Position numbers and translations under genes: made by a program
Sequence record: PP777464.1
Length of the DNA: 64,000 bases
DNA from: Escherichia phage fEgEco12
Reading direction: 5' to 3' (one strand)
Shown here: piece after piece, positions 20,790 through 38,101 of the stretch
How the letters are laid out: each line of letters starts with the position of its first letter
Numbering within the stretch: position 1 is the stretch's first letter
Notes under the pieces: generated by a model
Databases searched by the model: none
What the model was told of the DNA's origin: nothing
Seen by the model: only the letters and a program-made list of their open reading frames with translations

Positions 20790-20866
20790 GATAAAATCTC
20801 CTTGTGTTATACTTTATTTAATCATTTTATAATGTACAATTTTACAGCGATTTAATTGAGGTACTC
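20790..20866. promoter_or_regulatory. divergent promoter region (array member 1 and + gene 20867)
   Basis: AT-rich; TATAAT-like boxes on both strands. Confidence 0.4.
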
Positions 20867-21517
20867 ATGAATAAAAGAAGTAAGTTCTATCAAGAATATT
20901 TCACTAAACAGAAACGATTCACAAAAAAATACTTTACATCATCCCACCGACCAGTTGCAAGTTACAAACGTCCTAATACTAACTATCTTACTGGTGGCAA
21001 GTTTAGTGCAAAGTTCGAATTACTTATGCGTGAAAAGAATATCAAGATGCATTACGCAGAGACGAGAAAAAACTCATCAATTATTTGTTCTGATTTTCTT
21101 GAGTACGGTTGTTTAACTTATAAATTCAACGATGTATATTTGTATATTGATGTTGATTGTAACAGTACTCGTATGTTTGAGATTTCAATTCACCCAAATC
21201 ACAACCGTTATATAAACATTAACTTGGTTGATAAAGTACTGATTGGTATATCTAGTACTGATGGTGGTGGATTTGAATTTATTGCTTCAAAATATGATGA
21301 GGACTTTGTACTGTTCCCAGTACTTGATGATGTGAAAGATATTCTCAATTCATTAAAAGGAAGTCAATACAAATTATCTGAAGAACAGCTATTTCAGTAC
21401 TCACTTATTCATGATGATATCGAGATATACTTAGAGTGTGCGAGAATATTGGAGTATCTTTATAATGAACTAACAACAACTGGTAAAGTGACAGCATTCA
21501 CATTATATAATATGTAA
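20867..21517 (+). CDS. hypothetical protein (216 aa) embedded in the array on the opposite strand
   Basis: ATG with GAGG RBS. Confidence 0.55.
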   Translation: MNKRSKFYQEYFTKQKRFTKKYFTSSHRPVASYKRPNTNYLTGGKFSAKFELLMREKNIKMHYAETRKNSSIICSDFLEYGCLTYKFNDVYLYIDVDCNSTRMFEISIHPNHNRYININLVDKVLIGISSTDGGGFEFIASKYDEDFVLFPVLDDVKDILNSLKGSQYKLSEEQLFQYSLIHDDIEIYLECARILEYLYNELTTTGKVTAFTLYNM

Positions 21518-21549
21518 AAGAAAAGCCAGTACATAGTACTGGCATTATA
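21518..21549. terminator. bidirectional terminator hairpin GCCAGTACATAGTACTGGC
   Basis: inverted repeat between convergent genes. Confidence 0.6.
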
Positions 21550-22686: not shown

Positions 22687-22700
22687 TCTTTTTCTCCTTG

Positions 22701-23849: not shown

Positions 23850-23926
23850 AATTCCCTCCTTTATTCATTATACTATATTTAATCAAAAAGAAAAGCCAGC
23901 ACTCTGTACTGGCATAGTATTAAGGT
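23850..23926 (-). promoter_or_regulatory. array cassette: terminator hairpin + TATAAT + AAGGAGG RBS
   Basis: conserved about 75-bp cassette. Confidence 0.6.
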
Positions 23927-25057
23927 TTAAATATTTTTATAATTAATTTCTACATAGTTACGTTGTGTTCCAGTATATCCTGGAACATTACCTATATTTC
24001 CATTACCTGCACCAAACAGACGTTCTCCGACTGCAAAATATGTCCCATAGAAACAACCATCAAACACAGGAACATCATTATAATTTGATATGTAATTATC
24101 CATAGAATCCATTCTAGTGTATACTGTCAGAGCTACATTCGTACCCATACCATATGCACCATACGGGTTAGTACCAGCAACATAATACCCAGTGGGTGTA
24201 CATATTACTGGTGAATTTGCCCCTGATCTCGTGTGGATAAATCTAAATGTACCTTCAGGTACTGGTGCTTCTTTACTGAATAATGTTGTAGCTACTACTG
24301 GGTAATCAATACCATAACTATTACCACTCAACCACGTTTTACCATCACTATCTTTGAATAATGAACAGGATTGTGTGCATCCGAACAGATTCAAATTGGT
24401 TACATTTGGAAATTTACTAATTTGTGTATATACCAGAACTGTGGTTGCGGCAGCACTACCAAGTTGTCCACGACCATTATCACCCGCACTGTACATGTAC
24501 CCATCGGTCTTTAATATTATACTAGCGTTTCCTAAAATATCAAAATCAACAACATCCGTTTGTGTTAATGTAGCTATAGGATAACGAAAATTCACTGCCT
24601 CACCAGTACCAAATTGACAATTGGTGTTTGCCCCACATCCATATAAGTTGCCGTTTTGCATTAATATAAACAAACCTGTTGTCATTTTAATTTTCTTAAT
24701 ATTAAGAATATCTATATCTTGGAATATGTGTGTTACATTTACAAATGTGGTTGAGTTAACAGCACTTGAACCATAATAAGAACCGTTCCCGCTGCCAAAG
24801 AATTCATCGCCTTTTCTGTACATTGCACATAGACTACCACCCCATACATCATCAACCCCAGTGTCAATTTGAATAACAGAAGTAACACTAGTTGTTGTAC
24901 CAGTGCCAAGTTCACCACCTGAATTGTATCCAAAACCATACAAATCCCCACTTTCTGTTAGCACCAAAACACTGTTATTGGTTGTGCATGAAATCTTTTT
25001 GATATTATTAGATGGTCTTTTATTTCCGTACTTAACCATTCTTGCAAAAGGTAACAT
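23927..25057 (-). CDS. RCC1-like repeat protein, array member 4 (MLPFARMVKYGN)
   Basis: GYNSGGELGTGTTT, GDNGRGQLG motifs. Confidence 0.75.
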   Translation of the reverse strand: MLPFARMVKYGNKRPSNNIKKISCTTNNSVLVLTESGDLYGFGYNSGGELGTGTTTSVTSVIQIDTGVDDVWGGSLCAMYRKGDEFFGSGNGSYYGSSAVNSTTFVNVTHIFQDIDILNIKKIKMTTGLFILMQNGNLYGCGANTNCQFGTGEAVNFRYPIATLTQTDVVDFDILGNASIILKTDGYMYSAGDNGRGQLGSAAATTVLVYTQISKFPNVTNLNLFGCTQSCSLFKDSDGKTWLSGNSYGIDYPVVATTLFSKEAPVPEGTFRFIHTRSGANSPVICTPTGYYVAGTNPYGAYGMGTNVALTVYTRMDSMDNYISNYNDVPVFDGCFYGTYFAVGERLFGAGNGNIGNVPGYTGTQRNYVEINYKNI

Positions 25058-25136
25058 ATTTCCCTCCTTTATTCATTATACTATATTTAATACAAAAAGA
25101 AATGCCAGTATCAAGTACTGGCATAGTTTTATAGTA
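25058..25136 (-). promoter_or_regulatory. array cassette: terminator hairpin GCCAGTA(CTTGA)TACTGGC + promoter + RBS
   Basis: conserved cassette. Confidence 0.6.
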
Positions 25137-26246
25137 TCATTTCGGCATTGTAATTGCAGACCATGAGTTCGTGGTAATAGGACCTGGCACATACAAAAAA
25201 GAACCACAAGCATAAATTTGATTATTACCATCAAATACTATACTAAAATGTGCACATGTGTATAATGCTGATTTTTCTGGGTTGTAATTATCTAAAGTTA
25301 GTGTATTGGTGAATCTACTCAAACCACCACCAGAACCATTTCTACCAAATTCACCAGTACTATATATCTTTCCTTCGGTTGTTGCGTACATATTAACATA
25401 TGAAGTTGCACTTGATTTTGATATTTTATGTATCTTACTATCAATAGTAGTGGAGTTAAATGCAAATGGATATACTTGTGTGTTCGTTGTAATACCGTTA
25501 CCAAGTTGACCAACATACTGCCAACCTGCGTTGTATATATTGCTGGCTGAATAAGCAAGAGTACCAGTACTGTTACCACCAAACAGTTTAACACTGGTTA
25601 ACCTGCTTACTAGTGTAGTATACTGTCCTGGACTTACGCCAAGTGAACCATACCCACTACTCCCACAACCGAGAAGTTCACCATTTGATGTTAATATTAA
25701 TGTGTTATTCTGTGTACCCAATATATCAAGGACTGTATTAGCTCCGGTATTAATAACTGAAACAAAAGTACTCTGAGCCGTGGAATACCCAGCACCGAGT
25801 GAATAGTTACCATTCATGCCTCTACCATAAACAATCGAACCACTAGCATCAACGTAGTGCATTGTATCTACACCAATTGATATCATTTTAATATTAGATA
25901 TATGTGGAAATGAAGAAGTAACATTCAAACCACCCAACTGAATCGTAGTATTTCCTGTGCCTAATTGTGTGGTAACTCCATGCATTATGAATTCTTCACC
26001 CTTGAGATAAAGAATATTGTACGCCCCAGCCCATGCATCAGTAACACCTTCTGAAATTAATATCCAAGTATTTCTTGTTGCTGTATTTTCAACGTTTAAC
26101 TGAAAATAAGTATTAACCCCACAACCATAAAGTGAGCCATCGCCATAGAGGACGTACAAATTATCAAGACCGCACAGTACTTTCTTTATCTTTGGATCTT
26201 CAGGTGCAATATTCCCGTAATCAAACATTCTAACAAAAGGTAACAT
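25137..26246 (-). CDS. RCC1-like repeat protein, array member 5 (MLPFVRMFDYGN)
   Basis: start set at the MLPF Met; track ORF extends through the cassette. Confidence 0.75.
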   Translation of the reverse strand: MLPFVRMFDYGNIAPEDPKIKKVLCGLDNLYVLYGDGSLYGCGVNTYFQLNVENTATRNTWILISEGVTDAWAGAYNILYLKGEEFIMHGVTTQLGTGNTTIQLGGLNVTSSFPHISNIKMISIGVDTMHYVDASGSIVYGRGMNGNYSLGAGYSTAQSTFVSVINTGANTVLDILGTQNNTLILTSNGELLGCGSSGYGSLGVSPGQYTTLVSRLTSVKLFGGNSTGTLAYSASNIYNAGWQYVGQLGNGITTNTQVYPFAFNSTTIDSKIHKISKSSATSYVNMYATTEGKIYSTGEFGRNGSGGGLSRFTNTLTLDNYNPEKSALYTCAHFSIVFDGNNQIYACGSFLYVPGPITTNSWSAITMPK

Positions 26247-26318
26247 ATTTCCTCCTTTATTCATTATACTATATTTAATACAAAAAGAAAAGCCAGTACT
26301 CAAGTACTGGCCTATATT
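26247..26318 (-). promoter_or_regulatory. array cassette (terminator hairpin + promoter + RBS)
   Basis: conserved cassette. Confidence 0.6.
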
Positions 26319-27056
26319 TTAGACTGAATTGTTAGGATAATATCTCCCACGTCCCCATATTATTCGCACAGCACCACCACCAGCAGCAGTATAAGAAGAA
26401 TTATCCCATATACTACCACCACCACCATACCTCTTACCAGCACCACCACTACCAGCACCACCATTATATGAACCACCGTAGCTACCACCAATACCATTAG
26501 CACCTTGAACAATGATACCAGTACCACCACCCGTACCAATGAACGAGGTACTATAGAATGTACCACCCCCACCGCCGCCGCCAGCACCATTTTCACCAGT
26601 GATTGCATCTCCGTTACCACCTTTACCAGTGTAGCCACCAGCACCACCACCAATGACTGCACCACCACTTACACCAGTGTTGCCACCATTACCACCACCA
26701 TCATTAATAGCGTTAGCAGCTTTTCCACCTAGTCCACCAACCGTATATGCACCAGTGAAGCTAACACATAGTTTTTCAGTTCCACGGTATAAACCGTTTT
26801 CAACTGCTGTAGTAGTGTTGGAATGTGTAAGAGAAACACTTAAGTACTCACCACCAGAAACTGGAATATTATTACGCCACGATAAGCCGCCACCAGCACC
26901 ACGTTGACCACCCGGTGAAATAACACATACTGATATTTCGGTAACGCCAGCAGGAACTGTAAATTGTGTTGTTCCTATTGCCGTGATTAATTGTTCACCA
27001 TGTGGCTTATATTCAATTTTATTCCCGTACTTAACCATTCTTGCAAAAGGTAACAT
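26319..27056 (-). CDS. glycine-rich protein carrying the array leader (MLPFARMVKYGN)
   Basis: same leader and cassette, body replaced by poly-Gly low-complexity sequence. Confidence 0.7.
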   Translation of the reverse strand: MLPFARMVKYGNKIEYKPHGEQLITAIGTTQFTVPAGVTEISVCVISPGGQRGAGGGLSWRNNIPVSGGEYLSVSLTHSNTTTAVENGLYRGTEKLCVSFTGAYTVGGLGGKAANAINDGGGNGGNTGVSGGAVIGGGAGGYTGKGGNGDAITGENGAGGGGGGGTFYSTSFIGTGGGTGIIVQGANGIGGSYGGSYNGGAGSGGAGKRYGGGGSIWDNSSYTAAGGGAVRIIWGRGRYYPNNSV

Positions 27057-27128
27057 AATTCCCTCCTTTATTCATTATACTATATTTAATACAAATAATA
27101 ATGCCAGTATCAAGTACTGGCATTATTA
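27057..27128 (-). promoter_or_regulatory. array cassette
   Basis: conserved cassette. Confidence 0.6.
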
Positions 27129-28319
27129 TTACAATTGTCTAGGTGTATCCAGAACATATCTATTTGTTTTAGGACCACCATCATCATAAGTTCCGGTTGA
27201 ATATATATTTTTCATATCAGCAGTCAGGAAAGTACGCAACGAACCGCGATATATTTTTATTTTATCATACATAGAATATGTTATTTCTGACGGCAATGGA
27301 CATGCAGTAAATTTACCAATGGTAGCATCATAACCAACACCCAATGTGCCAGCATAACTACTCGCATTTAAACCAGTTGCATATACACCTGTACTCGTAA
27401 CTAGTATACTAGATTGTGCTGGGTATCCAGTATGGATTGAATAATAAGTACCGGGTGGTAATGTAGCACTATTATTTCCTAAAACTCCATTAACAGTGCT
27501 AGATGTAGTTTTATTTCCCCATGCTCCATTATTAGCTAATCCACCAACTAGAAACTGACGTGCTCCTGTATTTGGATTCTCCACTAAAGCACTGACAGCA
27601 CCAAATGAACAAACAGTATATTGTAATGTTTTTGTATATGTGGTACTTGGCTTATACAAAGTATATTCATTAAATGGTGTCCATGTGGTACTAGTACTTA
27701 TGCCAGATGTACTACCACCAATATATAAATTATTTTGTGTATCATAAAACATTACACAGCTATTTGTTGACTGTATTCGTGCAATATCAACATTAGGCGT
27801 GACAGCTTTTACAAATGAACCATCTGATATTTGATAAGTAGTTCCTGTACCATCTGCGAATTGTCTAGCACTATTCCACCCTGTACTCCATATTGTATTA
27901 TTATCCATTAAGAAAGTAAACCACGTAGTACCTGCATACATCTGTTTAATTGAAGTACTTGAACTTTGTGTGTACAAATTTTCAATATATTGGTTATAAC
28001 TTAAAAATGATGTAGTACTAGTTTCTAAACCAATATGACTACCATATCCACAATAAAAATAATTTAAGTCCTTATCTTGAACTAACAAAGTTCCTTGTGT
28101 CATCCAGCAATCTTTGACATTTTCTCTAATTAATGTCCACGACCTTACTGCATTATTATTTCCTCTACCAAACTTCCCATAACTATTACTACCTCGTGCG
28201 TATAGTTGACCGTCGGTATAAAGTACAACAACCTCAGTATCAGTTGGTATTATTTTCTTAATTTGAAGAGGTTCAGGTGTGATATTCCCATAATCAAACA
28301 TTCTAACAAAAGGTAACAT
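27129..28319 (-). CDS. RCC1-like repeat protein, array member 7
   Basis: GSNSYGKFGRGNNNAVRSW motif; leader. Confidence 0.75.
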   Translation of the reverse strand: MLPFVRMFDYGNITPEPLQIKKIIPTDTEVVVLYTDGQLYARGSNSYGKFGRGNNNAVRSWTLIRENVKDCWMTQGTLLVQDKDLNYFYCGYGSHIGLETSTTSFLSYNQYIENLYTQSSSTSIKQMYAGTTWFTFLMDNNTIWSTGWNSARQFADGTGTTYQISDGSFVKAVTPNVDIARIQSTNSCVMFYDTQNNLYIGGSTSGISTSTTWTPFNEYTLYKPSTTYTKTLQYTVCSFGAVSALVENPNTGARQFLVGGLANNGAWGNKTTSSTVNGVLGNNSATLPPGTYYSIHTGYPAQSSILVTSTGVYATGLNASSYAGTLGVGYDATIGKFTACPLPSEITYSMYDKIKIYRGSLRTFLTADMKNIYSTGTYDDGGPKTNRYVLDTPRQL

Positions 28320-28390
28320 AATTCCCTCCTTTATTCATTATACTATATTTAATCAAAAAAGAAAAGCCAGTATCAAGTACTGGCGTAATG
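28320..28390 (-). promoter_or_regulatory. array cassette
   Basis: conserved cassette. Confidence 0.6.
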
Positions 28391-29533
28391 TCAATAAGTA
28401 TCCCAAGGTAATGGTGTCTTCCTAAATCCATACCTGGTTGTGCTCGCACCATCACCAGCAATGTATCTACCTATACCACATTGGTATAACTCTGTACTAC
28501 TACATATAGCACCACCAATAGTACCACTACTCCACTGAATTATATTAGAATATGTTATTGGTAAATCACTACATTTAGTATATATTCCAACAGTAGCACC
28601 ACCACTAATACCACCAAACATACTTCGGTTAGCACCAGTGTAATATATACCATCTGGACTCATAAATGCAGAGGTGTAAGTTGTACTGCAATCCACTGGA
28701 CTTCTTATTGTATTAAGATCGCCTGGGTATGTCCTGACACCAAAGGTGTATACATTACCATCAGTTGTAATACCATTACCTAACTGCCCACTGTTTTGTC
28801 CACCACATGTAAGCAACAATGCAGAACCAGAAACAATTGCAGTAGCATTATACGAAGTACCCATTGCAATAGAAGCACCAGACAATAGTTTTGGAGTAAC
28901 AATAGCTGTTGTATTACCCTGGCCTAATTCACCATTGATATTTCGTCCCCATGCGTATATAGAAGTCGTGTCCAATCGACATAGTACTGAACCATAACTA
29001 AACGTATATCGCATGTCAATTACCGCATTAGGCAAATTAACCTTAGTTGCAACACTAATAACACCACCAGTAACACCACTGTTTGCGTTCATGTTACGAC
29101 CATATGCATATAAAGAACCATCTGAAGTTTTAATATGCATCATACCATCTGTACAATATAATGCATCTATACTCTCCACCGCAACCGGACCCATACTGGT
29201 AGTTATATCGGTCCACCCAAGAGAGGTAGTACTAGAAATTAAGTTATTTCCGGCGTATAGTATTCTATTATTATTAGTAACTACAACTGTATATCTGGTA
29301 GTAACACCAATTAATCGAACATCAGTATATATCTTAGACCACGCACCTAATGAATTGGTGTTTGCATCCAAAAAGCCCAACTGCCCATCTGTATTGTATC
29401 CAATACCCCATACATCACCTGCACTGTCCAATAACACTTCATGTGAAAATCCAATCTTAAAATCTTTTATTGTAGGAACTACCGGAACTGGTGCAATATT
29501 CCCGTACTTAACCATTCTAGCAAAAGGTAACAT
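28391..29533 (-). CDS. RCC1-like repeat protein, array member 8
   Basis: GYNTDGQLG, GQNSGQLGNG, GRNINGELGQG motifs. Confidence 0.75.
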   Translation of the reverse strand: MLPFARMVKYGNIAPVPVVPTIKDFKIGFSHEVLLDSAGDVWGIGYNTDGQLGFLDANTNSLGAWSKIYTDVRLIGVTTRYTVVVTNNNRILYAGNNLISSTTSLGWTDITTSMGPVAVESIDALYCTDGMMHIKTSDGSLYAYGRNMNANSGVTGGVISVATKVNLPNAVIDMRYTFSYGSVLCRLDTTSIYAWGRNINGELGQGNTTAIVTPKLLSGASIAMGTSYNATAIVSGSALLLTCGGQNSGQLGNGITTDGNVYTFGVRTYPGDLNTIRSPVDCSTTYTSAFMSPDGIYYTGANRSMFGGISGGATVGIYTKCSDLPITYSNIIQWSSGTIGGAICSSTELYQCGIGRYIAGDGASTTRYGFRKTPLPWDTY

Positions 29534-29607
29534 AATTCCCTCCTTTATTCATTATACTATATTTAATACAAATAAGAATGCCAGTACTCTGTACTGGCAT
29601 TTTAATT
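29534..29607 (-). promoter_or_regulatory. array cassette
   Basis: conserved cassette. Confidence 0.6.
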
Positions 29608-30762
29608 TTAACTCGGTGTAACTATTTTTTTAAATAATCCTGTATTTCCGGCATTTTCTTCTTCATACGGAATTGTACCCATACCAGCAGTTCTACTACC
29701 ATTCCCTGAACCATATAATTCACCGTTTTTTAACATGAATGTTATCATATAACCATGTGTCATTTTATCATATGGAACTGGTTCAGTTATATTAGTACAT
29801 GCACGCCATGTTTTAATAACATTAGAGTTCGTTATTCCATCTCCAGAAGCGTTTCCACGCCCAGCGAAATACCATATACCACCTGCTCTAACGTGTGCTT
29901 CATAATTAGAACCACCTATGTAATCAATCGCAGTACTAGGAATACTAGAAGCTGGTATCTTTGTGATTGTTCTAAGACTGTTAATAGTGCCATCAGTGCC
30001 ATCACCCAACTGTCCATCTATTTGTGAACCGAATACATATAGCCCATCACTCTTTAATACGTAATTAGCACTATATGCATTTTCTGAATTTATCTGTAAT
30101 ACTCCAGTAGTAACAGTAGTCAATGTGGTAGTTGTACTAGTCGTACCAGTCGAACCAATACTAGATTTATTCCCACTGTACTTTAATGTCCCATCATTGT
30201 ATAATACAAATGAAGCATTATTCGCGGTTACACCAATATCTTTAACATCAACTTCAGGTGTCAATGTCAGTACTGATACTCTTTGTCCAACAGCCCCAGT
30301 AAAAACTTCACCGTTGTTATTGTCACCCATCTTATATAATTTATTATCTATTGTTAATAATAATGTAACGCCGTTTCCTATAACTATTTTACTATATGTG
30401 TCATTCACATTATTAAAAATACCAAGTATTTCTGTCCATACACGATAAGTAGTATTAACACCACGATAGATTTGAGTACCAGTACTCCACCATGTGCCAT
30501 CATTTTTACGTACTAATATTCCTTGTGTATCACCAGTAGTCCAAAATTCCTTTACATCAGTTAAACATAAAACCCACTCTTCAACTATAGTAGGAGAACT
30601 ACTACCAGTACCTAATTGATAGTAAAAATTATGCCCTCTGCCATATAATCTTCCGTCTTCTAATAAAATAAACACATTATTCTGTAAAACTTTTACCATC
30701 TTTATACCAACTGGCACAGGTGCTTCATTCCCATAATCAAACATTCTAACAAAAGGTAACAT
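29608..30762 (-). CDS. RCC1-like repeat protein, array member 9
   Basis: GHNFYYQLGTG, GSQIDGQLGDG motifs. Confidence 0.75.
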   Translation of the reverse strand: MLPFVRMFDYGNEAPVPVGIKMVKVLQNNVFILLEDGRLYGRGHNFYYQLGTGSSSPTIVEEWVLCLTDVKEFWTTGDTQGILVRKNDGTWWSTGTQIYRGVNTTYRVWTEILGIFNNVNDTYSKIVIGNGVTLLLTIDNKLYKMGDNNNGEVFTGAVGQRVSVLTLTPEVDVKDIGVTANNASFVLYNDGTLKYSGNKSSIGSTGTTSTTTTLTTVTTGVLQINSENAYSANYVLKSDGLYVFGSQIDGQLGDGTDGTINSLRTITKIPASSIPSTAIDYIGGSNYEAHVRAGGIWYFAGRGNASGDGITNSNVIKTWRACTNITEPVPYDKMTHGYMITFMLKNGELYGSGNGSRTAGMGTIPYEEENAGNTGLFKKIVTPS

Positions 30763-30832
30763 ATTTCCCTCCTTTATTCATTATACTATATTTAATCAAA
30801 AAGAATGCCAGTACTTGAGTACTGGCATTATG
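30763..30832 (-). promoter_or_regulatory. array cassette
   Basis: conserved cassette. Confidence 0.6.
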
Positions 30833-31942: not shown

Positions 31943-31950
31943 AATTCCTC

Positions 31951-33144
31951 CTATTGTTGCCATAACTGCGTTGGCATTAATGTTAATGTTTTAATTAAGT
32001 AAGTACCATCCGGTAATTTACTACCTGAACCGTTAAAGCCCCCACATGCATATAATTTATAATCTTTAGTTATAATTATTGTTCTGGACCAGTCTTTGGA
32101 TGCCATAAGAACATTGTCATATCCACCCTGTATCGCACTTAAAGAAAACGCCCCCCACGAAGTAATTATTGTTGTATTTCCCGTCCCTTCTTGACCATAT
32201 GTATTGATGCCTGCACTCCTGACATATGATGGGTATTGAGCCATAGGTGCACCAATTGTTGAGTTACCCATATTACTAGGACACAGGAAACCATCACTAA
32301 TATTCACTATAACCTGTGAATTCTGAACTGTAGTTAATTGGTTTGTAGTTGAAGTAGTACCATTCCCAGCTTGTCCAGAATTGTTTCTACCACTCCAGTA
32401 CACCCTACCGGCAGTAAACCACCAGGTAACATCATAAGTAGTACTTATATAATCGACGTTGGTTCGTATTAATTTATTAGTAAAAACGTATGAGCTAGTC
32501 CCACCACCACTTTCACCAAAGTTATCCTTACCACAAAACCATGCTTCTTTATTTGTTTTGAGATAGTGCGTACCCTGTAATGAACACGCCAATTGAGAAA
32601 CTTCACCCATACCAGTAACAACTGTTAGTACTGGAATGGGATTTTGGTTACCTGTTCCACATTCGGCATTTGCATTTTTACCACAAACAACGACTCTTCC
32701 ATCGTGTAGTAATATTCTAGTACTTTCACCTATATGTACACTCTTGATTAAATTAGCGTGTATATTTATTTTGTTAAATGCGGCAGTAACATCAGTCCAT
32801 GTTCTAAAATAACCATTAACTGGAGTTGCATCTCCATAATCGGGGAATGCTACTGTATTCCCTGTGAAATATATTCTATTATCCAAGTCAATCATCAATG
32901 ATCCATGAACGCCTAACCAAAAGGCTGCACAGTGCGTTGCCAGTACTGTAAAAGTTGAAACTGCCGATTGATTCCCTAGACCTAATTGGCTCAAGTTATT
33001 ACCACCATAACCGTATAGTGTATTCGTGGGCTTATGTAGATACATAGCATTAGTATAATGTTGCTGTAAAACATCAGTGAACTCAACTGGTTCAGGAATA
33101 GGCAGTTTATTCCCGTACTTAACCATTCTTGCAAAAGGTAACAT
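31951..33144 (-). CDS. RCC1-like repeat protein, array member 11
   Basis: GGNNLSQLGLG, GRNNSGQAGNG motifs; start at MLPF Met (alternative 33159). Confidence 0.7.
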   Translation of the reverse strand: MLPFARMVKYGNKLPIPEPVEFTDVLQQHYTNAMYLHKPTNTLYGYGGNNLSQLGLGNQSAVSTFTVLATHCAAFWLGVHGSLMIDLDNRIYFTGNTVAFPDYGDATPVNGYFRTWTDVTAAFNKINIHANLIKSVHIGESTRILLHDGRVVVCGKNANAECGTGNQNPIPVLTVVTGMGEVSQLACSLQGTHYLKTNKEAWFCGKDNFGESGGGTSSYVFTNKLIRTNVDYISTTYDVTWWFTAGRVYWSGRNNSGQAGNGTTSTTNQLTTVQNSQVIVNISDGFLCPSNMGNSTIGAPMAQYPSYVRSAGINTYGQEGTGNTTIITSWGAFSLSAIQGGYDNVLMASKDWSRTIIITKDYKLYACGGFNGSGSKLPDGTYLIKTLTLMPTQLWQQ

Positions 33145-33159
33145 AACTAAAATCTCCAT

Positions 33160-33219
33160 ATAATAATTATAATGTATTTACAAAAAAATACCAGTACGTA
33201 TTTCAGTACTGGTATAATG
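33160..33219 (-). promoter_or_regulatory. variant array cassette (hairpin ACCAGTAC..GTACTGGT, TATAAT, GGAG)
   Basis: diverged cassette. Confidence 0.5.
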
Positions 33220-34401
33220 TTATGGTAAAATAATAGCTTGTAACGAACTCATACCCAATGTTGGAACACTCGCCTGTGGTGCTGGTGCATTCACTTTTGG
33301 TGATGAAACCGCATATGTCATTCCTGAACCCAAATCTGGATCAAAAACTACAGCACAATAATTCCCACTATATATAAGTCCATTCTTGTATCCTTGTGCA
33401 CTTTGAATGCATTTCGTGAACGTCCCAATATCTGTAGTGGCATTTATTAAGTTCCTCCCACGATAACCGCAGGTGTATATGAAATTATCATCGCCTATGT
33501 ACATACTAGAATCCCCAGCAGAACTACATAGATACGACATATAAGCACGCATGTTTTTAGGAGCAACTGACAATGTACCAGCATAGAATTTATTATTCGA
33601 ACCCGAAATATCACCATCACCCAAAGCACCAAAACTCCCCCAACCAGTACCATAATATCTCTTATCACTCAAGAATATAATACAGTTGTTATTACACATC
33701 TTGACTTGATATATCAATGAAGGATCAACCCCAGGGAATGATTCAGTGTATGTTAGAACAGCCAGATCAGTACTAGCATTACATTGATGATATGTATTAG
33801 TACCAGAGGACAATATTGTACCATCAACTAATAGAATCCTCGAAGTGCCAGTACCAGCAGTACAAGCAACTGCACTTCCTGCACTTCCGGTGTATATTTG
33901 TCTGAAAGTAAAGAAACCAACAGTCTTACTCCCTTGTCCACTCCAACCAGTATTATCAACACCACACGCCCATACTGAACCATCTTCCATGATCATCATT
34001 ACACCATAACGTTCTATTGAAATATAAACAATCTTTTTAGTATCAACTGCACTAAATCTAGAAGTTATATCCGTCCAAACCTTTACACTTACCGCCGTCG
34101 CACTGGAAGTAGGATCTTCACCTGCTATCATTATCCTACCATTGTTAGTCAGATACATTGTCTGACTATAACCAGTACTACAAAACTTAACACTATCAGT
34201 CTCTGGAACTTTTAACCACTCGTTGTAACGTGTTACGTTAGTGTTATTACCTAACTGATAATAGTTATTCATCCCAGATACATATAACACACCATCCTTT
34301 ATTAAACTATAAGTCGCACTATAGTCACTACAGGTATAACGTGTACCCACAGGTGGCTCAACGACGTTCCCATAATCAAACATTCTAACAAAAGGTAACA
34401 T
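33220..34401 (-). CDS. RCC1-like repeat protein, array member 12
   Basis: GMNNYYQLGNNTN motif; leader. Confidence 0.75.
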   Translation of the reverse strand: MLPFVRMFDYGNVVEPPVGTRYTCSDYSATYSLIKDGVLYVSGMNNYYQLGNNTNVTRYNEWLKVPETDSVKFCSTGYSQTMYLTNNGRIMIAGEDPTSSATAVSVKVWTDITSRFSAVDTKKIVYISIERYGVMMIMEDGSVWACGVDNTGWSGQGSKTVGFFTFRQIYTGSAGSAVACTAGTGTSRILLVDGTILSSGTNTYHQCNASTDLAVLTYTESFPGVDPSLIYQVKMCNNNCIIFLSDKRYYGTGWGSFGALGDGDISGSNNKFYAGTLSVAPKNMRAYMSYLCSSAGDSSMYIGDDNFIYTCGYRGRNLINATTDIGTFTKCIQSAQGYKNGLIYSGNYCAVVFDPDLGSGMTYAVSSPKVNAPAPQASVPTLGMSSLQAIILP

Positions 34402-34474
34402 AATAAAATCTCCGTAATTAAATTATATAGTATTTACAAAAAATACCAGTACATATTTCAGTACTGACCTATTA
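34402..34474 (-). promoter_or_regulatory. variant array cassette
   Basis: hairpin + TATAAT + GGAG. Confidence 0.5.
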
Positions 34475-35596
34475 TTAAAAGGGCAACGGTAACTCAGTAA
34501 AAGTACTTACGTCCGGTAAACCATACATTGAATTAGCATCACCACAGTAATACCACTTCGTAGAATCATGTACCACCGATAAACGCTGTGCACATAACAC
34601 TTCCTGTATGTCATTAAACACCATCGGGACTAACTCATATGTATCCGCAAATGAAGATACACCACCACTCGCATGAAAAGTATTCGTCCCAGCATAAAAT
34701 AACTGATTAGTGTTCTTACCCACAGCAAATGTCATCAATATCCCATCATTCTCCCATAAAGAAGAAAACTTATCAACACTACCAGAAAGCTCTGTGTAAG
34801 TACTCGTAATGGCACTCGCAGCCGCCGCATTACCCATCTGTTTATTCAAGTTCTGTCCAGCAATAAAATATCTCGTTCGTGCACTAGAATCAGTATATAA
34901 TAACCCAGTGTTCGTAGTCATCATACCAATGTCCTTAATCGTCATACCAGTCTGTGAATAACTTAGATACGAAGTTAAATTAACATTATTACCCAACGAA
35001 CCGTTATCACTCATGCCACAACGATGTAATATACCACTTGTATCAACGTAGATTGTACTAACTAAACTCGTATACAACTCTTGTACATTATTCGCAATAA
35101 ACACAGCAGTCGCCTTATTACTAACCCCACCAAATGATAGGTTATTATCAAATCCCTTAGCGTATAATTGATTATTAGTAGTCAATAATCCAATCGTGAA
35201 ATAAGACATTTTCATATCCCTTACTGTACTCAAATCTACTGCCCCAAATTGGTGCGTAACATCTGTCCATGTGAAAATCTGTGCACTACCAACACCACCC
35301 GTTTCAAACCATTTGTCACCACAGTACAATATGCGATTACCCTTAGTAAAGATAACTGTTACCAATCCACTACCACACGCAAACTTTACATCACTTCTAA
35401 CCTTCGTCCAATCAAGTACATAGGTAGTGGTGTTATTACCTATACCTAACTTGCCATAACGGTTATAACCACGCACCCACAAATCACCACTCTTAGTAAT
35501 TAATAGTAATGCGTCTCCTGTACTTATTATTCGAAATCCCGAACTAGGATCAGGTACTTCATTTCCATAATCAAACATTCTAACAAAAGGTAACAT
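34475..35596 (-). CDS. RCC1-like repeat protein, array member 13
   Basis: GYNRYGKLGIGNNTT motif. Confidence 0.75.
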   Translation of the reverse strand: MLPFVRMFDYGNEVPDPSSGFRIISTGDALLLITKSGDLWVRGYNRYGKLGIGNNTTTYVLDWTKVRSDVKFACGSGLVTVIFTKGNRILYCGDKWFETGGVGSAQIFTWTDVTHQFGAVDLSTVRDMKMSYFTIGLLTTNNQLYAKGFDNNLSFGGVSNKATAVFIANNVQELYTSLVSTIYVDTSGILHRCGMSDNGSLGNNVNLTSYLSYSQTGMTIKDIGMMTTNTGLLYTDSSARTRYFIAGQNLNKQMGNAAAASAITSTYTELSGSVDKFSSLWENDGILMTFAVGKNTNQLFYAGTNTFHASGGVSSFADTYELVPMVFNDIQEVLCAQRLSVVHDSTKWYYCGDANSMYGLPDVSTFTELPLPF

Positions 35597-35668
35597 ATTT
35601 CCCTCCTTTATTCATTATAATATATTTAATACAAAAAAGAAAAGCCAGTACAGAGTACTGGCATAGTA
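35597..35668 (-). promoter_or_regulatory. array cassette
   Basis: conserved cassette. Confidence 0.6.
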
Positions 35669-36778
35669 TTACTTGGGTAATGGAATTGTAGTCCATCTAT
35701 TAGCGGCAACGCCCCCTGGTACATATGTAGGACTACCACTTACAGCAATAGTTTCATTACCATCATACACAACACTGAAGTTTGTGCACGTATACAACGA
35801 GGCGGTATCTGGATTGTAATTTATAAGTGTTAATGTATTGGTGAACAAATTCAATGCAGTAGTTGACCCGTTTTTACCAAACGAACCTGTCGTATATATC
35901 TTTCCTTCTGTTGTTGAGTACATGTTAACATATGACCCAGATGATGATTTGGCAATTTTATCTATCTTGCTATCTATCGTTTTAGAGTTAAATTGAAATG
36001 GATATACCTGTACGTTAGTATCTAAACCATTTCCTAGTTCCCCATTTAACTGCCACCCTGAGTGGTACATTCCCGAATTTGTATATGCAAGCGTACTATA
36101 CCCATTACCACCCATTATTTTAGTGCCAGATAATTTTAAACCAAACGATGTCCACTTACCAGTTTCATTTCCTATAGAACCATAAGCACTTGTCCCACAT
36201 GCTCGAAGCTCACCATTCGATGTTAGAAGCACTGTATTATTAACGTTACCAAATATATCAATAACCTGATTAGTTCCATTATTCAGTACTGAAGTGAAAG
36301 TACTCTGTGAGTAAGTACTACCTGAACCAACAGAACCATTTGTGTTCATACCTCTTCCATATACAGTTGTACCATCAGCACTAACATAGTGCATTGAATC
36401 AAAACCAATGGATATCATTTTAATATTAGAGATATCTGGGAATGAAGAAGTTACATCTACTCCACCTAATGGAATTGTAGTATTTCCTAAACCTAATGAG
36501 ACATTAGTTCCGTGCATTATAAATTTATCTTCTTTCAAATATAAAATATTGTATCCACCAGCCCATGCATTACTAACACCATTGGTAATTAGTACCCAAT
36601 TATTTTGTGTAGCAGTTCCATCAATATTTAACTGTTGATAGTTATTGATTCCACAACCATATAGCGAACCATCACCATATAGTACATATAAATTATCATA
36701 TCCTGCTATAACTTTCTTTATTTTTTTCGGTACTGGTGCAATATTCCCGTACTTAACCATTCTTACAAAAGGTAACAT
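35669..36778 (-). CDS. RCC1-like repeat protein, array member 14 (close paralog of member 5)
   Basis: start at MLPF Met. Confidence 0.75.
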   Translation of the reverse strand: MLPFVRMVKYGNIAPVPKKIKKVIAGYDNLYVLYGDGSLYGCGINNYQQLNIDGTATQNNWVLITNGVSNAWAGGYNILYLKEDKFIMHGTNVSLGLGNTTIPLGGVDVTSSFPDISNIKMISIGFDSMHYVSADGTTVYGRGMNTNGSVGSGSTYSQSTFTSVLNNGTNQVIDIFGNVNNTVLLTSNGELRACGTSAYGSIGNETGKWTSFGLKLSGTKIMGGNGYSTLAYTNSGMYHSGWQLNGELGNGLDTNVQVYPFQFNSKTIDSKIDKIAKSSSGSYVNMYSTTEGKIYTTGSFGKNGSTTALNLFTNTLTLINYNPDTASLYTCTNFSVVYDGNETIAVSGSPTYVPGGVAANRWTTIPLPK

Positions 36779-36850
36779 ATTTCCTCCTTTATTCATTATA
36801 CTATATTTAATACAAAAAGAAAAGCCAGTATCAAGTACTGGCATATTAAA
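36779..36850 (-). promoter_or_regulatory. array cassette
   Basis: conserved cassette. Confidence 0.6.
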
Positions 36851-37999
36851 TCACTGCCAAAATGACATATCAACTTCTGTGAAATTAAGCACGCTCTGCG
36901 TAGAAAGACCACCCATTGCTACCATCGCAATTCCACAATAATATAACTTCCCTTTGTCATTGAGTAACAATGTCCCAGATGGTGTTGTTACTAAATTGCA
37001 CGAAGTATTAAAAGAAGTATATGAAGGAGTATAGTAGTACTGATTAATGGTATTACCTACACCTAATTTTCCATACCCATTTTCTCCAGATGCGTAAAGT
37101 ACTTCATCACCTTTAGCAATATGTGATGCCATGTTACTAACACACGTGTATACAGCTCTAACTCCTGTACTCAATAATGTAGGAGTCTTGTATTGGATAT
37201 CAGTACTAGTAGATGTCCCACCTGTACCAAATTCATTACCGTATTGTGCACCGTATTGTTTACCACAAGCGTACAAATTATTATCCGATTTGATAAAAAA
37301 TGTACTCTGATAACTTACATTAAAATCTATAACATCCGAAGAAATCATCGTCACCCCAGTAATAGAAGTTTGATTACCCGTGCCCAACTGGTAGTAATAG
37401 TTAAAACCACAACCCCATAAAGTATTATCTTCTCGCAAATAAATGTTACCAACTGCCTTTTTAACCGAAGTTATAGTATCTACTCTTTTGAATGTGTTAA
37501 AAGAATTAATGTTTGTGCCATCACCAAATGATGATATGTTCGATATATTGTTAGTTCCACAACAATACAATGTACCATCGTTTGTTATCAAATTCACCTT
37601 CATATCATAAAAACTACTCATGTATTTTATATCAGAAACATTAATACCACTTGATGTTATCCACGTAGTACAGTCCGTCCACAAAGTTTTTCTATCAGTT
37701 ACACCAGTGAATGCCTTCGTGTTACCAGTGATAAAAACTTTTCCAGTACCTTTCTCTTCATACAATTGACAATCACTACTGTTATCTTCCAATAGAACTC
37801 GTTTAACATTCTCCGCACAAAGAATAAATTTACTCGATGCTACACCTGTACCAGTACCCCAATTCGTCGCAGAAGATGCATACAACTTGTCAGTATAAGT
37901 ATCATGAAGATACATAGAATCACTGGAATATATTTTATAACGACCAGAGTTGGTAGGAGCTTCATTCCCATAATCAAACATTCTAACAAAAGGTAACAT
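36851..37999 (-). CDS. RCC1-like repeat protein, array member 15
   Basis: GFNYYYQLGTGNQ, GENGYGKLGVGNT motifs; start at MLPF Met. Confidence 0.75.
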   Translation of the reverse strand: MLPFVRMFDYGNEAPTNSGRYKIYSSDSMYLHDTYTDKLYASSATNWGTGTGVASSKFILCAENVKRVLLEDNSSDCQLYEEKGTGKVFITGNTKAFTGVTDRKTLWTDCTTWITSSGINVSDIKYMSSFYDMKVNLITNDGTLYCCGTNNISNISSFGDGTNINSFNTFKRVDTITSVKKAVGNIYLREDNTLWGCGFNYYYQLGTGNQTSITGVTMISSDVIDFNVSYQSTFFIKSDNNLYACGKQYGAQYGNEFGTGGTSTSTDIQYKTPTLLSTGVRAVYTCVSNMASHIAKGDEVLYASGENGYGKLGVGNTINQYYYTPSYTSFNTSCNLVTTPSGTLLLNDKGKLYYCGIAMVAMGGLSTQSVLNFTEVDMSFWQ

Positions 38000-38047
38000 A
38001 TTTCCTCCTTTATTCATTATATCATATTTACCCCAAAAAGAAAACCC
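38000..38047 (-). promoter_or_regulatory. promoter/RBS cassette of array member 15
   Basis: same cassette sequence. Confidence 0.5.
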
Positions 38048-38094: not shown

Positions 38095-38101
38095 ACTGTA
38101 C

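What the first reader, a model, noticed from the sequence alone, without database searches (positions are those of the whole stretch)
23850..38047. Near-identical terminator/promoter/RBS cassette repeated in front of most array genes
Between array genes the same roughly 75-bp sequence recurs on the minus strand: a hairpin of the form GCCAGTA(loop)TACTGGC followed by a T-run, then TTGTATTAAATATAGTATAATGAATAAAGGAGGGAAAT and the ATG. The TATAAT box has no good -35 and the leader is only about 17 nt, which resembles phage late-type promoters more than the sigma70 promoters elsewhere in the window. Two gene pairs (21550/22701 and 30833/31951) lack the cassette and are joined by an RBS only. The repeated cassette plus conserved leader codons gives about 110 bp of homology every 1.2 kb, an obvious substrate for recombinational shuffling or copy-number change.
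Basis: seen in the sequence. Interest (0 to 1): 0.65.

Follow-up and report, generated by a model that had tools for sequence, protein, structure and literature searches.

The report
Repeated terminator-promoter cassettes shuffle phage genes
In this giant E. coli phage, a near-identical terminator, promoter-like box, ribosome site and 12-codon leader precede most of 15 very different virion-protein genes, and comparison with related phages shows the genes are swapped, lost and reordered exactly at this shared piece.

Summary
The window comes from an Asteriusvirus (121Q/PBECO4-like) jumbo coliphage. It holds 15 minus-strand genes: 14 RCC1-like beta-propellers and one Gly-rich protein, sharing only 21-30% amino-acid identity. 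Ten carry the promoter/RBS core, nine of them behind a GCCAGTAC hairpin and T-run; two have a diverged version, two are RBS-coupled and one (gene O) has a diverged remnant.

Promoter/RBS copies are 95% identical and the first 36 coding bases 90%, against 53% for gene bodies. The cassette occurs in all 35 Asteriusvirus records and in no other phage record.

Across 8 relatives the array holds 33 orthogroups in different orders. All 75 internal homology-block ends lie between -74 and +66 of an array start codon (P about 5e-72). This strongly supports the recombination idea.

The promoter class is unresolved. This phage's late genes use TATAAATA, which the cassette lacks.

The closest known analogues are T4-type PeSL cassettes and the T-even internal-protein locus. 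I rate it a new variant of a known kind. No transcript data exist.

The parts
19665..37999 (-). Array of 15 genes, all starting ATGTTACCTTT (MLPF..). A 36851-37999, B 35669-36778, C 34475-35596, D 33220-34401, E 31951-33144, F 30833-31942, G 29608-30762, H 28391-29533, I 27129-28319, J 26319-27056 (Gly-rich, not RCC1), K 25137-26246, L 23927-25057, M 22701-23849, N 21550-22686, O 19665-20789.
   Evidence: Pfam RCC1/RCC1_2 matches. The AlphaFold model is a propeller matching UVR8, RPGR and RCC1 at TM about 0.73. Paralogs share 21-30% amino-acid identity.
38000..38047 (-). Boundary cassette before the first gene A: GGGGTAAATATGATATAATGAATAAAGGAGGAAAT. It has no GCCAGTAC terminator hairpin. The TAAATA..TATAAT 16-mer lies at 38031-38016.
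   Evidence: The same variant precedes whichever gene is first in 9 phages (orthogroups A, P, C, Ae, E) and the first array gene of Salmonella phage Munch.
36779..36850 (-). Canonical cassette between A and B: hairpin 36842-36824, T-run, TTAAATATAGTATAAT 36810-36795, GGAGG.
35597..35668 (-). Canonical cassette between B and C (1 mismatch, TATATTATAAT): hairpin 35662-35644, box 35629-35614.
34402..34474 (-). Variant cassette 1 between C and D: hairpin 34468-34445, T-run, GTAAATACTATATAAT 34437-34422, GGAGATTTTATT.
   Evidence: It follows orthogroup C in three phages (window, UE-S1 and, in a diverged form, TH47).
33145..33219 (-). Variant cassette 2 between D and E: hairpin 33215-33188, T-run, GTAAATACATTATAAT 33181-33166, GGAGATTTTAGTT.
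   Evidence: It always follows orthogroup D but precedes E, Q or F in different phages.
31943..31950 (-). RBS-only coupled junction between E and F, with no cassette.
   Evidence: The same 3' end of E is coupled to D in BF17.
30763..30832 (-). Canonical cassette between F and G: hairpin 30829-30804, box 30795-30780.
29534..29607 (-). Canonical cassette between G and H: hairpin 29601-29577, box 29566-29551.
28320..28390 (-). Canonical cassette between H and I: hairpin 28384-28366, T-run, TTAAATA 28352-28346, TATAAT 28342-28337, GGAGG 28329-28325.
27057..27128 (-). Canonical cassette between I and J: extended hairpin AATAATAATGCCAGTAC..TACTGGCATTATTATT (-19.5 kcal/mol), box 27089-27074.
26247..26318 (-). 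Canonical cassette between J and K: hairpin 26313-26290, box 26278-26263.
25058..25136 (-). Canonical cassette between K and L: hairpin 25124-25102, box 25090-25075.
23850..23926 (-). Canonical cassette between L and M: hairpin 23913-23895, box 23882-23867.
22687..22700 (-). RBS-only coupled junction between M and N.
21525..21543 (-). GCCAGTAC hairpin plus T-run after gene N. It is a terminator with no following cassette promoter.
20790..20866 (-). Upstream region of gene O, with a diverged remnant GATTAAATAAAGTATAACACAAGGAGATTTTATC. It is divergent with the plus-strand gene 20867-21517.
19634..19660 (.). Bidirectional CCAGTAC hairpin at the array's 3' end, between convergent genes.

Best explanation
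Each array gene is a self-contained expression module. It is bounded upstream by a composite regulatory cassette: an intrinsic terminator that ends the previous gene's transcript, a promoter without a -35 box whose conserved core is (T/G)TAAATA-N3-TATAA, and a strong GGAGG ribosome site. The gene then opens with 12 conserved codons, M-L-P-F-x-R-M-x-x-Y-G-N.

I read the promoter as most likely a variant T4-type late promoter used by the phage's gp55-like sigma factor. Transcription would then start inside or just after TATAAT, giving a leader of about 20 nt.

The N-terminal peptide is probably an unstructured tag. It is common to proteins of unrelated fold that end up in the virion.

The same roughly 110 bp recurs every 1.2 kb and in every related phage, so it serves as the crossover site for homologous recombination. 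Gene bodies are exchanged, deleted, inserted and reordered as whole units that stay correctly expressed. The cassettes and leaders themselves are kept alike by the same exchanges.

Shown: the repeat itself, its genus-wide distribution, the gene shuffling with breakpoints confined to the cassette and leader, and nucleotide-level homogenisation. Inferred: terminator and promoter activity, promoter class, and the function of the leader.
For: Repeat and its restriction:
- The repeat is real and far beyond chance.
- A 74-nt cassette query hits 35 phage records, all Asteriusvirus-like, with 3-12 places each, and nothing else among 50,697 records.

Old genes, young cassettes:
- Paralogs share 21-30% amino-acid identity and 53% nucleotide identity. 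Promoter/RBS copies are 95% identical and leaders 90%.
- Synonymous sites are frozen. Leu2 is TTA in 109/109 genes and Pro3 is CCT in 109/109. Arg6, where the residue is Arg, is AGA in 103/105. Body codon usage for these is 0.45, 0.30 and 0.41.
- Two leader haplotypes, TTTGATTAT and GTTAAGTAC, are spread over unrelated paralogs.
- Leaders of orthologs in different clades are no more alike (0.872) than leaders of paralogs within one genome (0.870).

Shuffling:
- There are 33 orthogroups in 9 phages, in different orders.
- All 75 internal blastn block ends fall between -74 and +66 of an array ATG, a zone that covers 11.2% of the array (binomial P about 5e-72).
- The boundary cassette stays in place while the first gene changes. 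Variant cassette 2 always follows D but precedes E, Q or F.

Terminators:
- Stems have 7-13 pairs, -10 to -19.5 kcal/mol, followed by a T-run. ARNOLD-predicted terminators are annotated at these sites in G17.

Promoter:
- TAAATAT and TATAA are at least 98% invariant in 78 copies.
- The 16-mer TTAAATATAGTATAAT is conserved in Salmonella phage Munch although its flanks have diverged.
- GTAAATA is kept in GAP32 gp1 and Serratia phage BF.
- The first array gene, which has no upstream array gene, keeps the box.
- ATAAATA followed 4 nt later by TATAAT also precedes the phAPEC6 virion protein gp231c.

Late expression is plausible:
- Eight array proteins are found in phAPEC6 virions (PMC7247149, Table 1) and GAP32 gp1 is structural (PMC5259590).
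- A late sigma factor gene is present, gp237c.
- T4 late promoters have no -35 box, position -13 varies among T4's own late promoters and -13/-12 differ in phage Aeh1 (PMC2988020).

Leader:
- M(L/I)PFxR(M/I)xxYGN is conserved in GAP32, Munch and (in one of three genes examined) Yen9-04. Serratia BF and the other two Yen9-04 genes keep only MLPFP.
- It heads the Gly-rich protein J, and the shorter MLPFP form heads a PE-PGRS-like protein in Serratia BF.
- Residues 1-19 have no predicted secondary structure and residues 1-10 have low pLDDT (mean 49).
Against: - No transcript, 5'-end or 3'-end data exist for any Asteriusvirus in the searchable literature.
- The cassette lacks this phage's canonical late box TATAAATA/ATAAATA. 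Outside the array, TTAAATA is not enriched upstream of genes (2 of 21).
- Very high identity could result from gene conversion alone, so within-genus conservation is not proof of function.
- Blastn block ends mark the outer limits of shared homology, not the crossover point itself. Selection for intact genes would also favour gene-sized units.
- Some related records are unverified or frameshifted assemblies (CMSTMSU, TH47, EC22.5-2), and short repeats can disturb assembly.
- The AlphaFold model rests on only 14 sequences.
Confidence: 0.7

Rival explanations
1. The promoter is a host sigma70-type element. TATAAT acts as a -10-only box, or TATAGT acts as a -10 paired with a weak -35 (CTGGCA) inside the 3' arm of the hairpin, as in PeSL cassettes where the stem-loop overlaps the -35. 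The array would then be expressed early or middle, perhaps with a phage activator or the phage's second sigma70-family factor.
For: - AGTATAATG is the exact -10 context of five of the window's early promoters. Roughly 20 early-promoter copies lie at 44.6-63.1 kb, most with GCGTATAATG.
- The hairpin arm GTACTGGCA differs by one base from the early -35 region GTACTTGCA. The scan reports CTGGCA-17-TATAGT at two copies.
- Asteriusviruses encode an additional sigma70-family factor (PMC5259590; PMC13070987).
Against: - There is no usable -35 for TATAAT. About half the copies have CTGGCT, and T-run indels change the hairpin-to-box spacing from 15 to 18 nt.
- The first-gene cassette and its Munch counterpart have no -35-like sequence.
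- The key last T of TATAAT is C or A in intact copies in 121Q, UE-S1, G17, PBECO4, TH47 and WPEC5.
- TATAAT degenerates to GATATT or TATATA in GAP32 and Serratia BF, while TAAATA is kept.
- There is no TGn extended -10.
- A start 7 nt after TATAAT would leave the Shine-Dalgarno site at the very 5' end of the mRNA.
- The gene products are virion proteins.
Confidence: 0.2
2. There are no internal promoters. The array is transcribed from its boundary promoter as a long RNA. The hairpins act as attenuators, 3'-end stabilisers or processing sites, and the A/T-rich stretch plus GGAGG is a translation-initiation enhancer. Its near-identity is maintained only by gene conversion.
For: - In other Rak2-like genera (Munch, Yersinia phage fHe-Yen9-04) most array genes are translationally coupled in operon style. 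Two pairs in the window are coupled as well.
- The hairpins are short, with 4-5 G-C pairs.
- Homogenisation is demonstrably active.
Against: - The same box precedes the first gene, where a promoter is needed.
- The 16-mer TTAAATATAGTATAAT is conserved between genera while the adjacent T-run, spacer and Shine-Dalgarno site diverged. This points to a sequence-specific DNA element rather than a general A/T-rich enhancer.
- Each hairpin is followed by a proper T-run.
Confidence: 0.15
3. The cassettes are merely leftovers of recent tandem duplication, and the apparent shuffling is an assembly artefact.
For: - The genes are tandem paralogs.
- Several related records are flagged UNVERIFIED.
Against: - Gene bodies share only 21-30% amino-acid identity, so the duplications are old, yet the cassettes are 95% identical.
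- The repeat (about 110 bp) is shorter than typical reads.
- Sub-blocks such as H-I-J-K-L and A-B-D recur in independently sequenced phages.
- Leader haplotypes switch in parallel in many paralogs.
Confidence: 0.03

Closest known systems
PeSL (promoter-early stem-loop) mobile regulatory cassettes of T4-type phages (Arbiol et al. 2010, PMC2839356; Comeau et al. 2014, PMC4122927)
   Same: - Both are short composite intergenic motifs running from the stop codon of one gene to the start codon of the next.
- Both hold a terminator-like stem-loop, a promoter and a Shine-Dalgarno site.
- Both are repeated many times in a hyperplastic region.
- In both, insertions, deletions and replacements between related phages have their junctions in the motif, which is read as homologous recombination giving modular shuffling.
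   Different: - PeSLs have strong sigma70 early promoters with -35, -10 and an upstream A/T tract, and they flank small ORFans. Promoter and terminator activity and mini-circles were shown experimentally.
- Here there is no -35 box and the core looks late-type.
- The homology extends 36 nt into the coding sequence.
- The flanked genes are 1.2-kb paralogs encoding virion proteins.
- The host lineage is a Rak2-like jumbo phage.
- Nothing has been tested experimentally.
- Classic PeSL-like early cassettes do occur elsewhere in the same window, at 44.6-63.1 kb.
T-even internal protein (Ip) hotspot with the capsid targeting sequence (Repoila et al. 1994, as cited in PMC3012670 and PMC12373910)
   Same: In both, a polymorphic locus encodes proteins that share no similarity except a short conserved N-terminal leader, and the proteins are found in the virion.
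   Different: - The Ip leader is a proven capsid-packaging signal that is cleaved by the prohead protease. Ips are small injected inhibitors of GmrSD-type restriction enzymes.
- Here the leader's role, any cleavage, the location in the virion and the protein function are all unknown.
- The bodies are mostly one fold, the RCC1-like propeller.
T4-type late promoters (TATAAATA, gp55) (Geiduschek and Kassavetis 2010, PMC2988020)
   Same: - Both have a single A/T box about one helical turn upstream of the start, no -35 element and A/T-rich sequence downstream.
- The phage has a gp55-like sigma factor and uses TATAAATA before its capsid genes.
- The cassette keeps the TAAATA core.
   Different: - The cassette has T or G instead of A at the position equivalent to -12, and is not TATAAATA.
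- TTAAATA is not used upstream of genes outside the array.
- No gp33 or gp45 homologues were reported for related phages (PMC5259590).
RCC1-like 'DNA condensation protein' paralog arrays of Rak2-like jumbo phages (PMC5259590; PMC7247149)
   Same: This is the same gene family and the same locus. The multiple copies in 121Q, PBECO4 and phAPEC6, and their presence in virions, are already published.
   Different: The papers I could search note only the copy number. None of them describes the cassette, the shared leader or the shuffling.

Membership tests
PeSL regulatory cassette | Strong sigma70-like early promoter with -35 and -10 boxes and an upstream A/T-rich tract | tested here: not met
   A perfect TATAAT is present, but the hexamers 16-18 nt upstream are TTTTCT-like. 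The alternative CTGGCA/CTGGCT-TATAGT register has variable spacing of 15-18 nt. The window's true early promoters look different.
PeSL regulatory cassette | Stable stem-loop able to terminate or attenuate transcription | tested here: met
   This is met by prediction only. Stems have 7-13 pairs, -10 to -19.5 kcal/mol, followed by a T-run. ARNOLD-predicted terminators are annotated at these sites in G17.
PeSL regulatory cassette | Spans from the upstream stop codon to the Shine-Dalgarno site and start codon of the next gene, and is repeated in a hyperplastic region | tested here: met
   Intergenic spans are 70-79 nt at 11 junctions. Array content varies from 7 to 16 genes and 33 orthogroups in 9 phages.
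PeSL regulatory cassette | Junctions of insertions, deletions and replacements between related phages lie in the motif | tested here: met
   All 75 internal block ends fall between -74 and +66 of an array ATG.
PeSL regulatory cassette | Formation of mini-circles by recombination between neighbouring motifs | not testable with these tools
   This needs outward-facing PCR or long reads on phage DNA.
Intrinsic (Rho-independent) terminator | G+C-rich hairpin immediately followed by a U-run on the transcribed strand | tested here: met
   There are 25 sites in 19000-38900 against 8.1 expected. Array hairpins are followed by TTTTCTTTTT. Activity has not been measured.
T4-type late promoter | 8-bp TATAAATA box at -13 to -6 | tested here: not met
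   The cassette has ATTAAATA, GGTAAATA or TGTAAATA. The exact box is absent from all cassettes. The TAAATA core is invariant.
T4-type late promoter | No -35 element and A/T-rich sequence downstream of the box | tested here: met
   There is no conserved -35 element. The downstream sequence TAGTATAATGAATAAA has 13 A/T in 16 positions.
T4-type late promoter | Phage encodes a gp55-type sigma factor and uses the box before late genes | tested here: met
   phAPEC6 gp237c is annotated as the sigma factor for late transcription. TATAAATA lies 16-55 nt upstream of the major capsid gene and six other genes. In the window it precedes two virion-protein genes.
T4-type late promoter | Late, gp55-dependent initiation about 6 nt downstream of the box | not testable with these tools
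   No transcriptome was found for any Asteriusvirus.
T-even Ip / capsid targeting sequence | Conserved N-terminal leader on otherwise unrelated proteins | tested here: met
   M1 L2 P3 F4 Y10 G11 N12 are invariant among paralogs with 21-30% identity. The Gly-rich protein J shares the leader. M(L/I)PFxR(M/I)xxYGN is conserved in GAP32, Munch and one Yen9-04 gene; Serratia BF and two other Yen9-04 genes keep only MLPFP.
T-even Ip / capsid targeting sequence | The leader directs packaging into the head and is removed by the prohead protease, and the proteins are injected | not testable with these tools
   Presence in the virion is known only from mass spectrometry of phAPEC6 (PMC7247149) and GAP32 (PMC5259590). 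Location and processing are unknown.
T-even Ip / capsid targeting sequence | Sequence similarity to the T4 CTS | not tested
   No sequence comparison with the T4 CTS was run. The resemblance is functional analogy only.

The most novel reading that the evidence does not exclude
The array is a built-in diversification locus for virion-carried proteins. The 12-residue MLPF..YGN peptide would be a packaging or attachment tag. The beta-propeller or Gly-rich bodies would be interchangeable effectors, either host-surface binders or injected anti-defence proteins, like the T-even Ip proteins. The terminator-promoter-RBS-leader unit would be a plug-and-play adaptor that lets any body be swapped between co-infecting phages by homologous recombination while keeping expression level and virion targeting. 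On this reading a 'pan-array' of dozens of variants is maintained by selection from host diversity.
Probability: 0.3. Interest if true: 0.8.

Novelty: new variant of a known kind. Interest (0 to 1): 0.55.

Why it matters
The locus gives a clean natural example outside the T4 group of how a phage keeps a large family of very different genes interchangeable. A short shared regulatory and coding adaptor acts both as the expression signal and as the recombination site.

It also makes several open questions testable:
- What are the multi-copy RCC1-like virion proteins of Rak2-like jumbo phages for?
- Does the conserved N-terminal peptide target proteins to the virion?
- Which polymerase form reads a promoter that lies between the host -10 consensus and the T4 late box?

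In practice, the cassette and leader could serve as a ready-made site for inserting foreign genes into these therapeutic-candidate phages. The repeat also warns that array order in short-read assemblies needs checking.

Tried and rejected
- **Known RNA genes.** Rfam at gathering thresholds and a tRNA scan over the whole window found nothing. The cassette is not a known RNA family.
- **Extended -10.** The bases before TATAAT are TAG, not TGn.
- **T4 MotA-type middle promoter.** TTTGTATTA resembles the MotA box, but it ends only 7 nt from TATAAT. From my own knowledge of T4 the expected distance is about 12 nt, so I rejected this on spacing.
- **The CBB/GAP32 'TGAAACG + TATA' promoter class** (PMC5259590). 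It is absent from the cassette.
- **Exact late box.** TATAAATA is absent from all cassettes.
- **A -35 box hidden in the hairpin arm.** It fits at some copies, but the spacing varies and half the copies have CTGGCT.
- **The ATG inside TATAATG as the true start.** It is in frame only in copies with GGAGGAAAT and out of frame in copies with GGAGGGAAAT, so I rejected it.
- **The leader as the closing strand of the propeller.** The model shows residues 1-19 without secondary structure, and the Gly-rich protein J has the same leader.
- **Literature.** Searches on 121Q, PBECO4, phAPEC6, G17, Sharanji, UE-S1, JP4 and fEgEco12 found no description of the cassette and no transcriptome. Repoila et al. 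1994 could not be opened.
- **Large database searches.** I did not use the large protein-database or metagenome searches, because the phage collection already answered the questions.

Full report
**What the window is**

A 7-kb piece of the region matches Escherichia phage CMSTMSU at 95.8% and 35 other records of Asteriusvirus (121Q/PBECO4-like) jumbo phages of E. coli and Salmonella. The region holds 15 minus-strand genes that all begin ATGTTACCTTT. I call them A to O, from 37999 down to 19665.

Fourteen are RCC1-like (Pfam RCC1 and RCC1_2). An AlphaFold model of gene M is a beta-propeller (pTM 0.80) matching UVR8, RPGR and RCC1 at TM about 0.73. Gene J (26319-27056) is a Gly-rich 245-aa protein with no Pfam match. 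The paralogs share only 21-30% amino-acid identity. The invariant columns are M1 L2 P3 F4 Y10 G11 N12 and a few glycines.

**Check of the observation**

The 23-nt core TATAGTATAATGAATAAAGGAGG occurs 10 times with at most 2 mismatches, where none is expected. Nine copies sit behind a GCCAGTA(C)-loop-(G)TACTGGC hairpin and a T-run. The tenth, in front of the first gene A, has the promoter/RBS part only.

- Two junctions (C/D and D/E) carry a diverged version.
- Gene O has a diverged remnant.

Terminator-like sites are enriched, at 25 against 8.1 expected. The CCAGTAC hairpin occurs only in the array within this window.

| Segment (9 canonical copies) | Pairwise nucleotide identity |
|---|---|
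| Hairpin plus T-run | 83% |
| Promoter/RBS, -38..-1 | 95% |
| Leader, +1..+36 | 90% |
| Codons 13-40 | 62% |
| Gene bodies | 53% |

**The repeat is a genus-wide feature**

A 74-nt cassette query finds 35 phage records, all of this genus-level group, with 3-12 places each. It finds nothing in the other roughly 50,660 phage records. GenBank annotators of G17 marked ARNOLD terminators between the array genes. Those of UE-S1 marked repeat_region, terminator and RBS features. I found no paper that describes the cassette.

**Shuffling**

I fetched the arrays of CMSTMSU, UE-S1, 121Q, EC22.5-2, TH47, BF17, G17, PBECO4 and WPEC5. Eight of them were usable, the CMSTMSU array being too frameshifted to group. 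I grouped gene bodies, without the first 16 residues, at 70% amino-acid identity or more. Nine phages, counting the window, give 33 orthogroups in clearly different orders:

| Phage | Order of orthogroups |
|---|---|
| window | A B C D E F G H I J K L M N O |
| BF17 | P A G E D Q F H I J K L R M N O |
| WPEC5 | A B D F H I J L S T M U V N O |
| UE-S1 | A C D F H J I X R |
| PBECO4 | E F R A I x H X Ag |

In blastn of the window array against the 8 usable relatives, all 75 internal ends of blocks (at least 500 bp, at least 80% identity) fall between -74 and +66 of an array ATG. Block starts lie at -74..-32 (cassette junctions, half of them at -74..-65) or at -16..0 (coupled junctions). Block ends lie at +20..+66, mostly +35..+54. 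That zone covers 11.2% of the array, giving a binomial P of about 5e-72.

These ends mark the outer limits of the shared piece, so each crossover lies somewhere inside it. The boundary cassette (GGGGTAAATATGATATAATG) stays at the array edge while the first gene is A, P, C, Ae or E. Variant cassette 2 always follows D but precedes E, Q or F. The 3' end of E is coupled to F in some phages and to D in BF17. Where the intergenic sequences differ, the only shared homology is the leader. The first 36 coding bases are therefore themselves a crossover site.

**Homogenisation**

Synonymous positions in the leader are frozen:

- Leu2 is TTA in 109 of 109 genes.
- Pro3 is CCT in 109 of 109 genes.
- Arg6, where the residue is Arg, is AGA in 103 of 105 genes.
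- Gly11 is mostly GGG.

In the gene bodies these codons have frequencies of 0.45, 0.30, 0.41 and 0.11. My gene finder required TT[AG] CCN, which slightly limits this test.

Two haplotypes, TTT GAT TAT (FDY) and GTT AAG TAC (VKY), are spread over unrelated paralogs. Other phages have other dominant forms, such as GRMVKYG in UE-S1 and ARMMNYG in G17 and PBECO4. Leaders of orthologs from different clades are no more alike (0.872) than leaders of paralogs in one genome (0.870).

**Which promoter?**

The window shows the phage's other promoter classes.

Early promoters. About 20 copies of AAAAAGTACTTGCA-N17-TATAATGTTTTACATC lie at 44.6-63.1 kb on the plus strand. Each is followed by a GGGGA..TCCCC stem-loop and a Shine-Dalgarno site. 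These are classic PeSL-like cassettes.

Late promoters. TATAAATA is strongly avoided, at 2 copies against 13.6 expected. Both copies lie just upstream of genes that match PHROG 'virion structural protein' families. In the phAPEC6 structural region it occurs 7 times in 50 kb, each 16-55 nt upstream of a gene, including the major capsid gene. A late sigma factor gene (gp237c) lies nearby. ATAAATA sits upstream of a gene start in 17 of 21 occurrences.

The cassette has neither a -35 box nor TATAAATA. Over 78 copies from 9 genomes, the invariant core is TAAATAT-nn-TATAA. The last T of TATAAT is somewhat less conserved, and it is C or A in intact copies in six phages.

In other genera:

- Salmonella phage Munch has the same hairpin, T-run and TTAAATATA(T/G)TATAAT, and the same boundary variant, with diverged flanks.
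- GAP32 gp1 and Serratia phage BF keep GTAAATA, but TATAAT has decayed to GATATT or TATATA.

T4 late promoters have no -35 box. Position -13 varies among T4's own late promoters, and -13/-12 together differ in phage Aeh1 (PMC2988020). The phAPEC6 virion protein gp231c has ATAAATA-TTTC-TATAAT upstream. Eight array proteins are found in phAPEC6 virions (PMC7247149) and GAP32 gp1 is structural (PMC5259590).

I therefore favour a variant late-type promoter whose box is (T/G)TAAATA. There are reservations. TTAAATA is not used upstream of genes outside the array (2 of 21). The sequence AGTATAATG also matches the -10 context of five of the early promoters. A weak CTGGCA-17-TATAGT register exists at some copies, but its spacing varies.

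**The leader peptide**

M(L/I)PFxR(M/I)xxYGN is conserved in GAP32, Munch and one of three Yen9-04 genes, while Serratia BF and the other two Yen9-04 genes keep only MLPFP. The full leader also heads the Gly-rich protein J, and the MLPFP form heads a PE-PGRS-like protein in Serratia BF. In the model, residues 1-19 have no secondary structure and residues 1-10 have low confidence. The peptide looks like a tag shared by proteins that reach the virion. In those other genera the array genes are mostly translationally coupled. One cassette per gene is thus a particular development of Asteriusvirus, seen in part in Munch.

**Comparison with known systems**

The closest concept is the PeSL of T4-type phages. 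It is a composite terminator/promoter/RBS motif that mediates modular shuffling (PMC2839356, PMC4122927). The cassette shares the architecture, the repetition and the breakpoints. It fails the defining strong sigma70 promoter with a -35 box. It also differs in extending into the coding sequence and in flanking large paralogous virion-protein genes.

The T-even Ip locus is a second analogue. There, unrelated proteins share only a capsid-targeting leader (PMC3012670, PMC12373910).

**Verdict**

- The recombination interpretation is strongly supported by comparative data.
- The terminator and RBS are well supported by sequence.
- I rate it a new variant of a known kind, of moderate interest.

Noticed in passing
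window 44660-63180, + strand: About 20 copies of a second, different regulatory cassette lie in front of small ORFs. Each has an A-tract, AAAGTACTTGCA (-35 region), a 17-nt spacer, TATAATGTTTTACATC, a GGGGA..TCCCC stem-loop (-10 to -16 kcal/mol), a Shine-Dalgarno site and an ATG. There are 17 exact copies of AAAGTACTTGCA, and 62 matches with up to 2 mismatches against 9.5 expected. This looks like a classic PeSL-type early promoter/stem-loop array in a non-T4 jumbo phage.
   Followed up: partly
window 7611-7618 and 8853-8860, + strand: TATAAATA is strongly avoided in the window (2 copies against 13.6 expected). Both copies sit 21-32 nt upstream of genes 7651-8034 and 8882-10393, which match PHROG 'virion structural protein' families. 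The copy at 8853 follows a terminator hairpin and reads TATAAATATAGT, close to the array cassette's TATTAAATATAGT.
   Followed up: partly
window 26319-27056, - strand (gene J): A Gly-rich 245-aa protein (PHROG 4474, unknown function, no Pfam match) sits inside the RCC1-like array with the same cassette and the same MLPFARMVKYGN leader. Serratia phage BF has a 'PE-PGRS family' gene (L013 from 1729) that begins MLPFPIISNT next to its RCC1-like gene.
   Followed up: partly
window 20867-21517, + strand: A 216-aa gene of unknown function (PHROG 34359) lies on the opposite strand between array genes N and O. The same 760-nt gap between N and O is present in BF17, WPEC5 and TH47.
   Followed up: no
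window 38100-44000: This stretch has few ORFs of 100 aa or more, but several families of direct repeats (for example 39151-39328 with 39533-39710, and 41094-41159, 41278-41343 and 41869-41934). It corresponds to runs of roughly 60-aa genes (121Q_249-265) in relatives.
   Followed up: no
window 36779-36850, 26247-26318 and 38000-38017, - strand: The ATG inside TATAATG is in frame with the gene in cassettes that have GGAGGAAAT. ORF finders therefore extend genes A, B and K by MNKGGN or more, and K is called from a TTG at 26303. In cassettes with GGAGGGAAAT it opens a short out-of-frame ORF instead. This is an annotation hazard rather than a real start.
   Followed up: yes
array hairpins such as 25102-25124 and 29577-29601, compared with early promoters such as 56616-56627: The 3' arm of the terminator hairpin (GTACTGGCA) differs by one base from the -35 region of the early promoters (GTACTTGCA). 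In some copies it lies 17 nt from TATAGT. It may be a relic of descent from an early-promoter cassette, or it may be coincidence in a GTAC-rich genome.
   Followed up: partly
L012 (Salmonella phage Munch) and L014 (Yersinia phage fHe-Yen9-04): Other Rak2-like genera also have arrays of RCC1-like genes that open with an MLPF/MIPF leader. Most of their genes overlap or are translationally coupled, and only some junctions in Munch carry the hairpin plus TTAAATATAGTATAAT cassette.
   Followed up: partly
L001 (CMSTMSU, MH494197), L003 (121Q), L004 (EC22.5-2) and L008 (PBECO4): Several array genes in related records are split or truncated, with 49-70-aa ORFs followed by gaps of about 1 kb. The closest relative, CMSTMSU, is flagged UNVERIFIED and has a heavily frameshifted array. 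These may be sequencing errors or real pseudogenes.
   Followed up: no
window 17189-19628, + strand: Seven back-to-back ORFs of 104-123 aa, with overlapping stop and start codons, lie just upstream of the array. Equivalent runs are annotated in 121Q, G17 and WPEC5. I did not examine whether they are paralogs.
   Followed up: no
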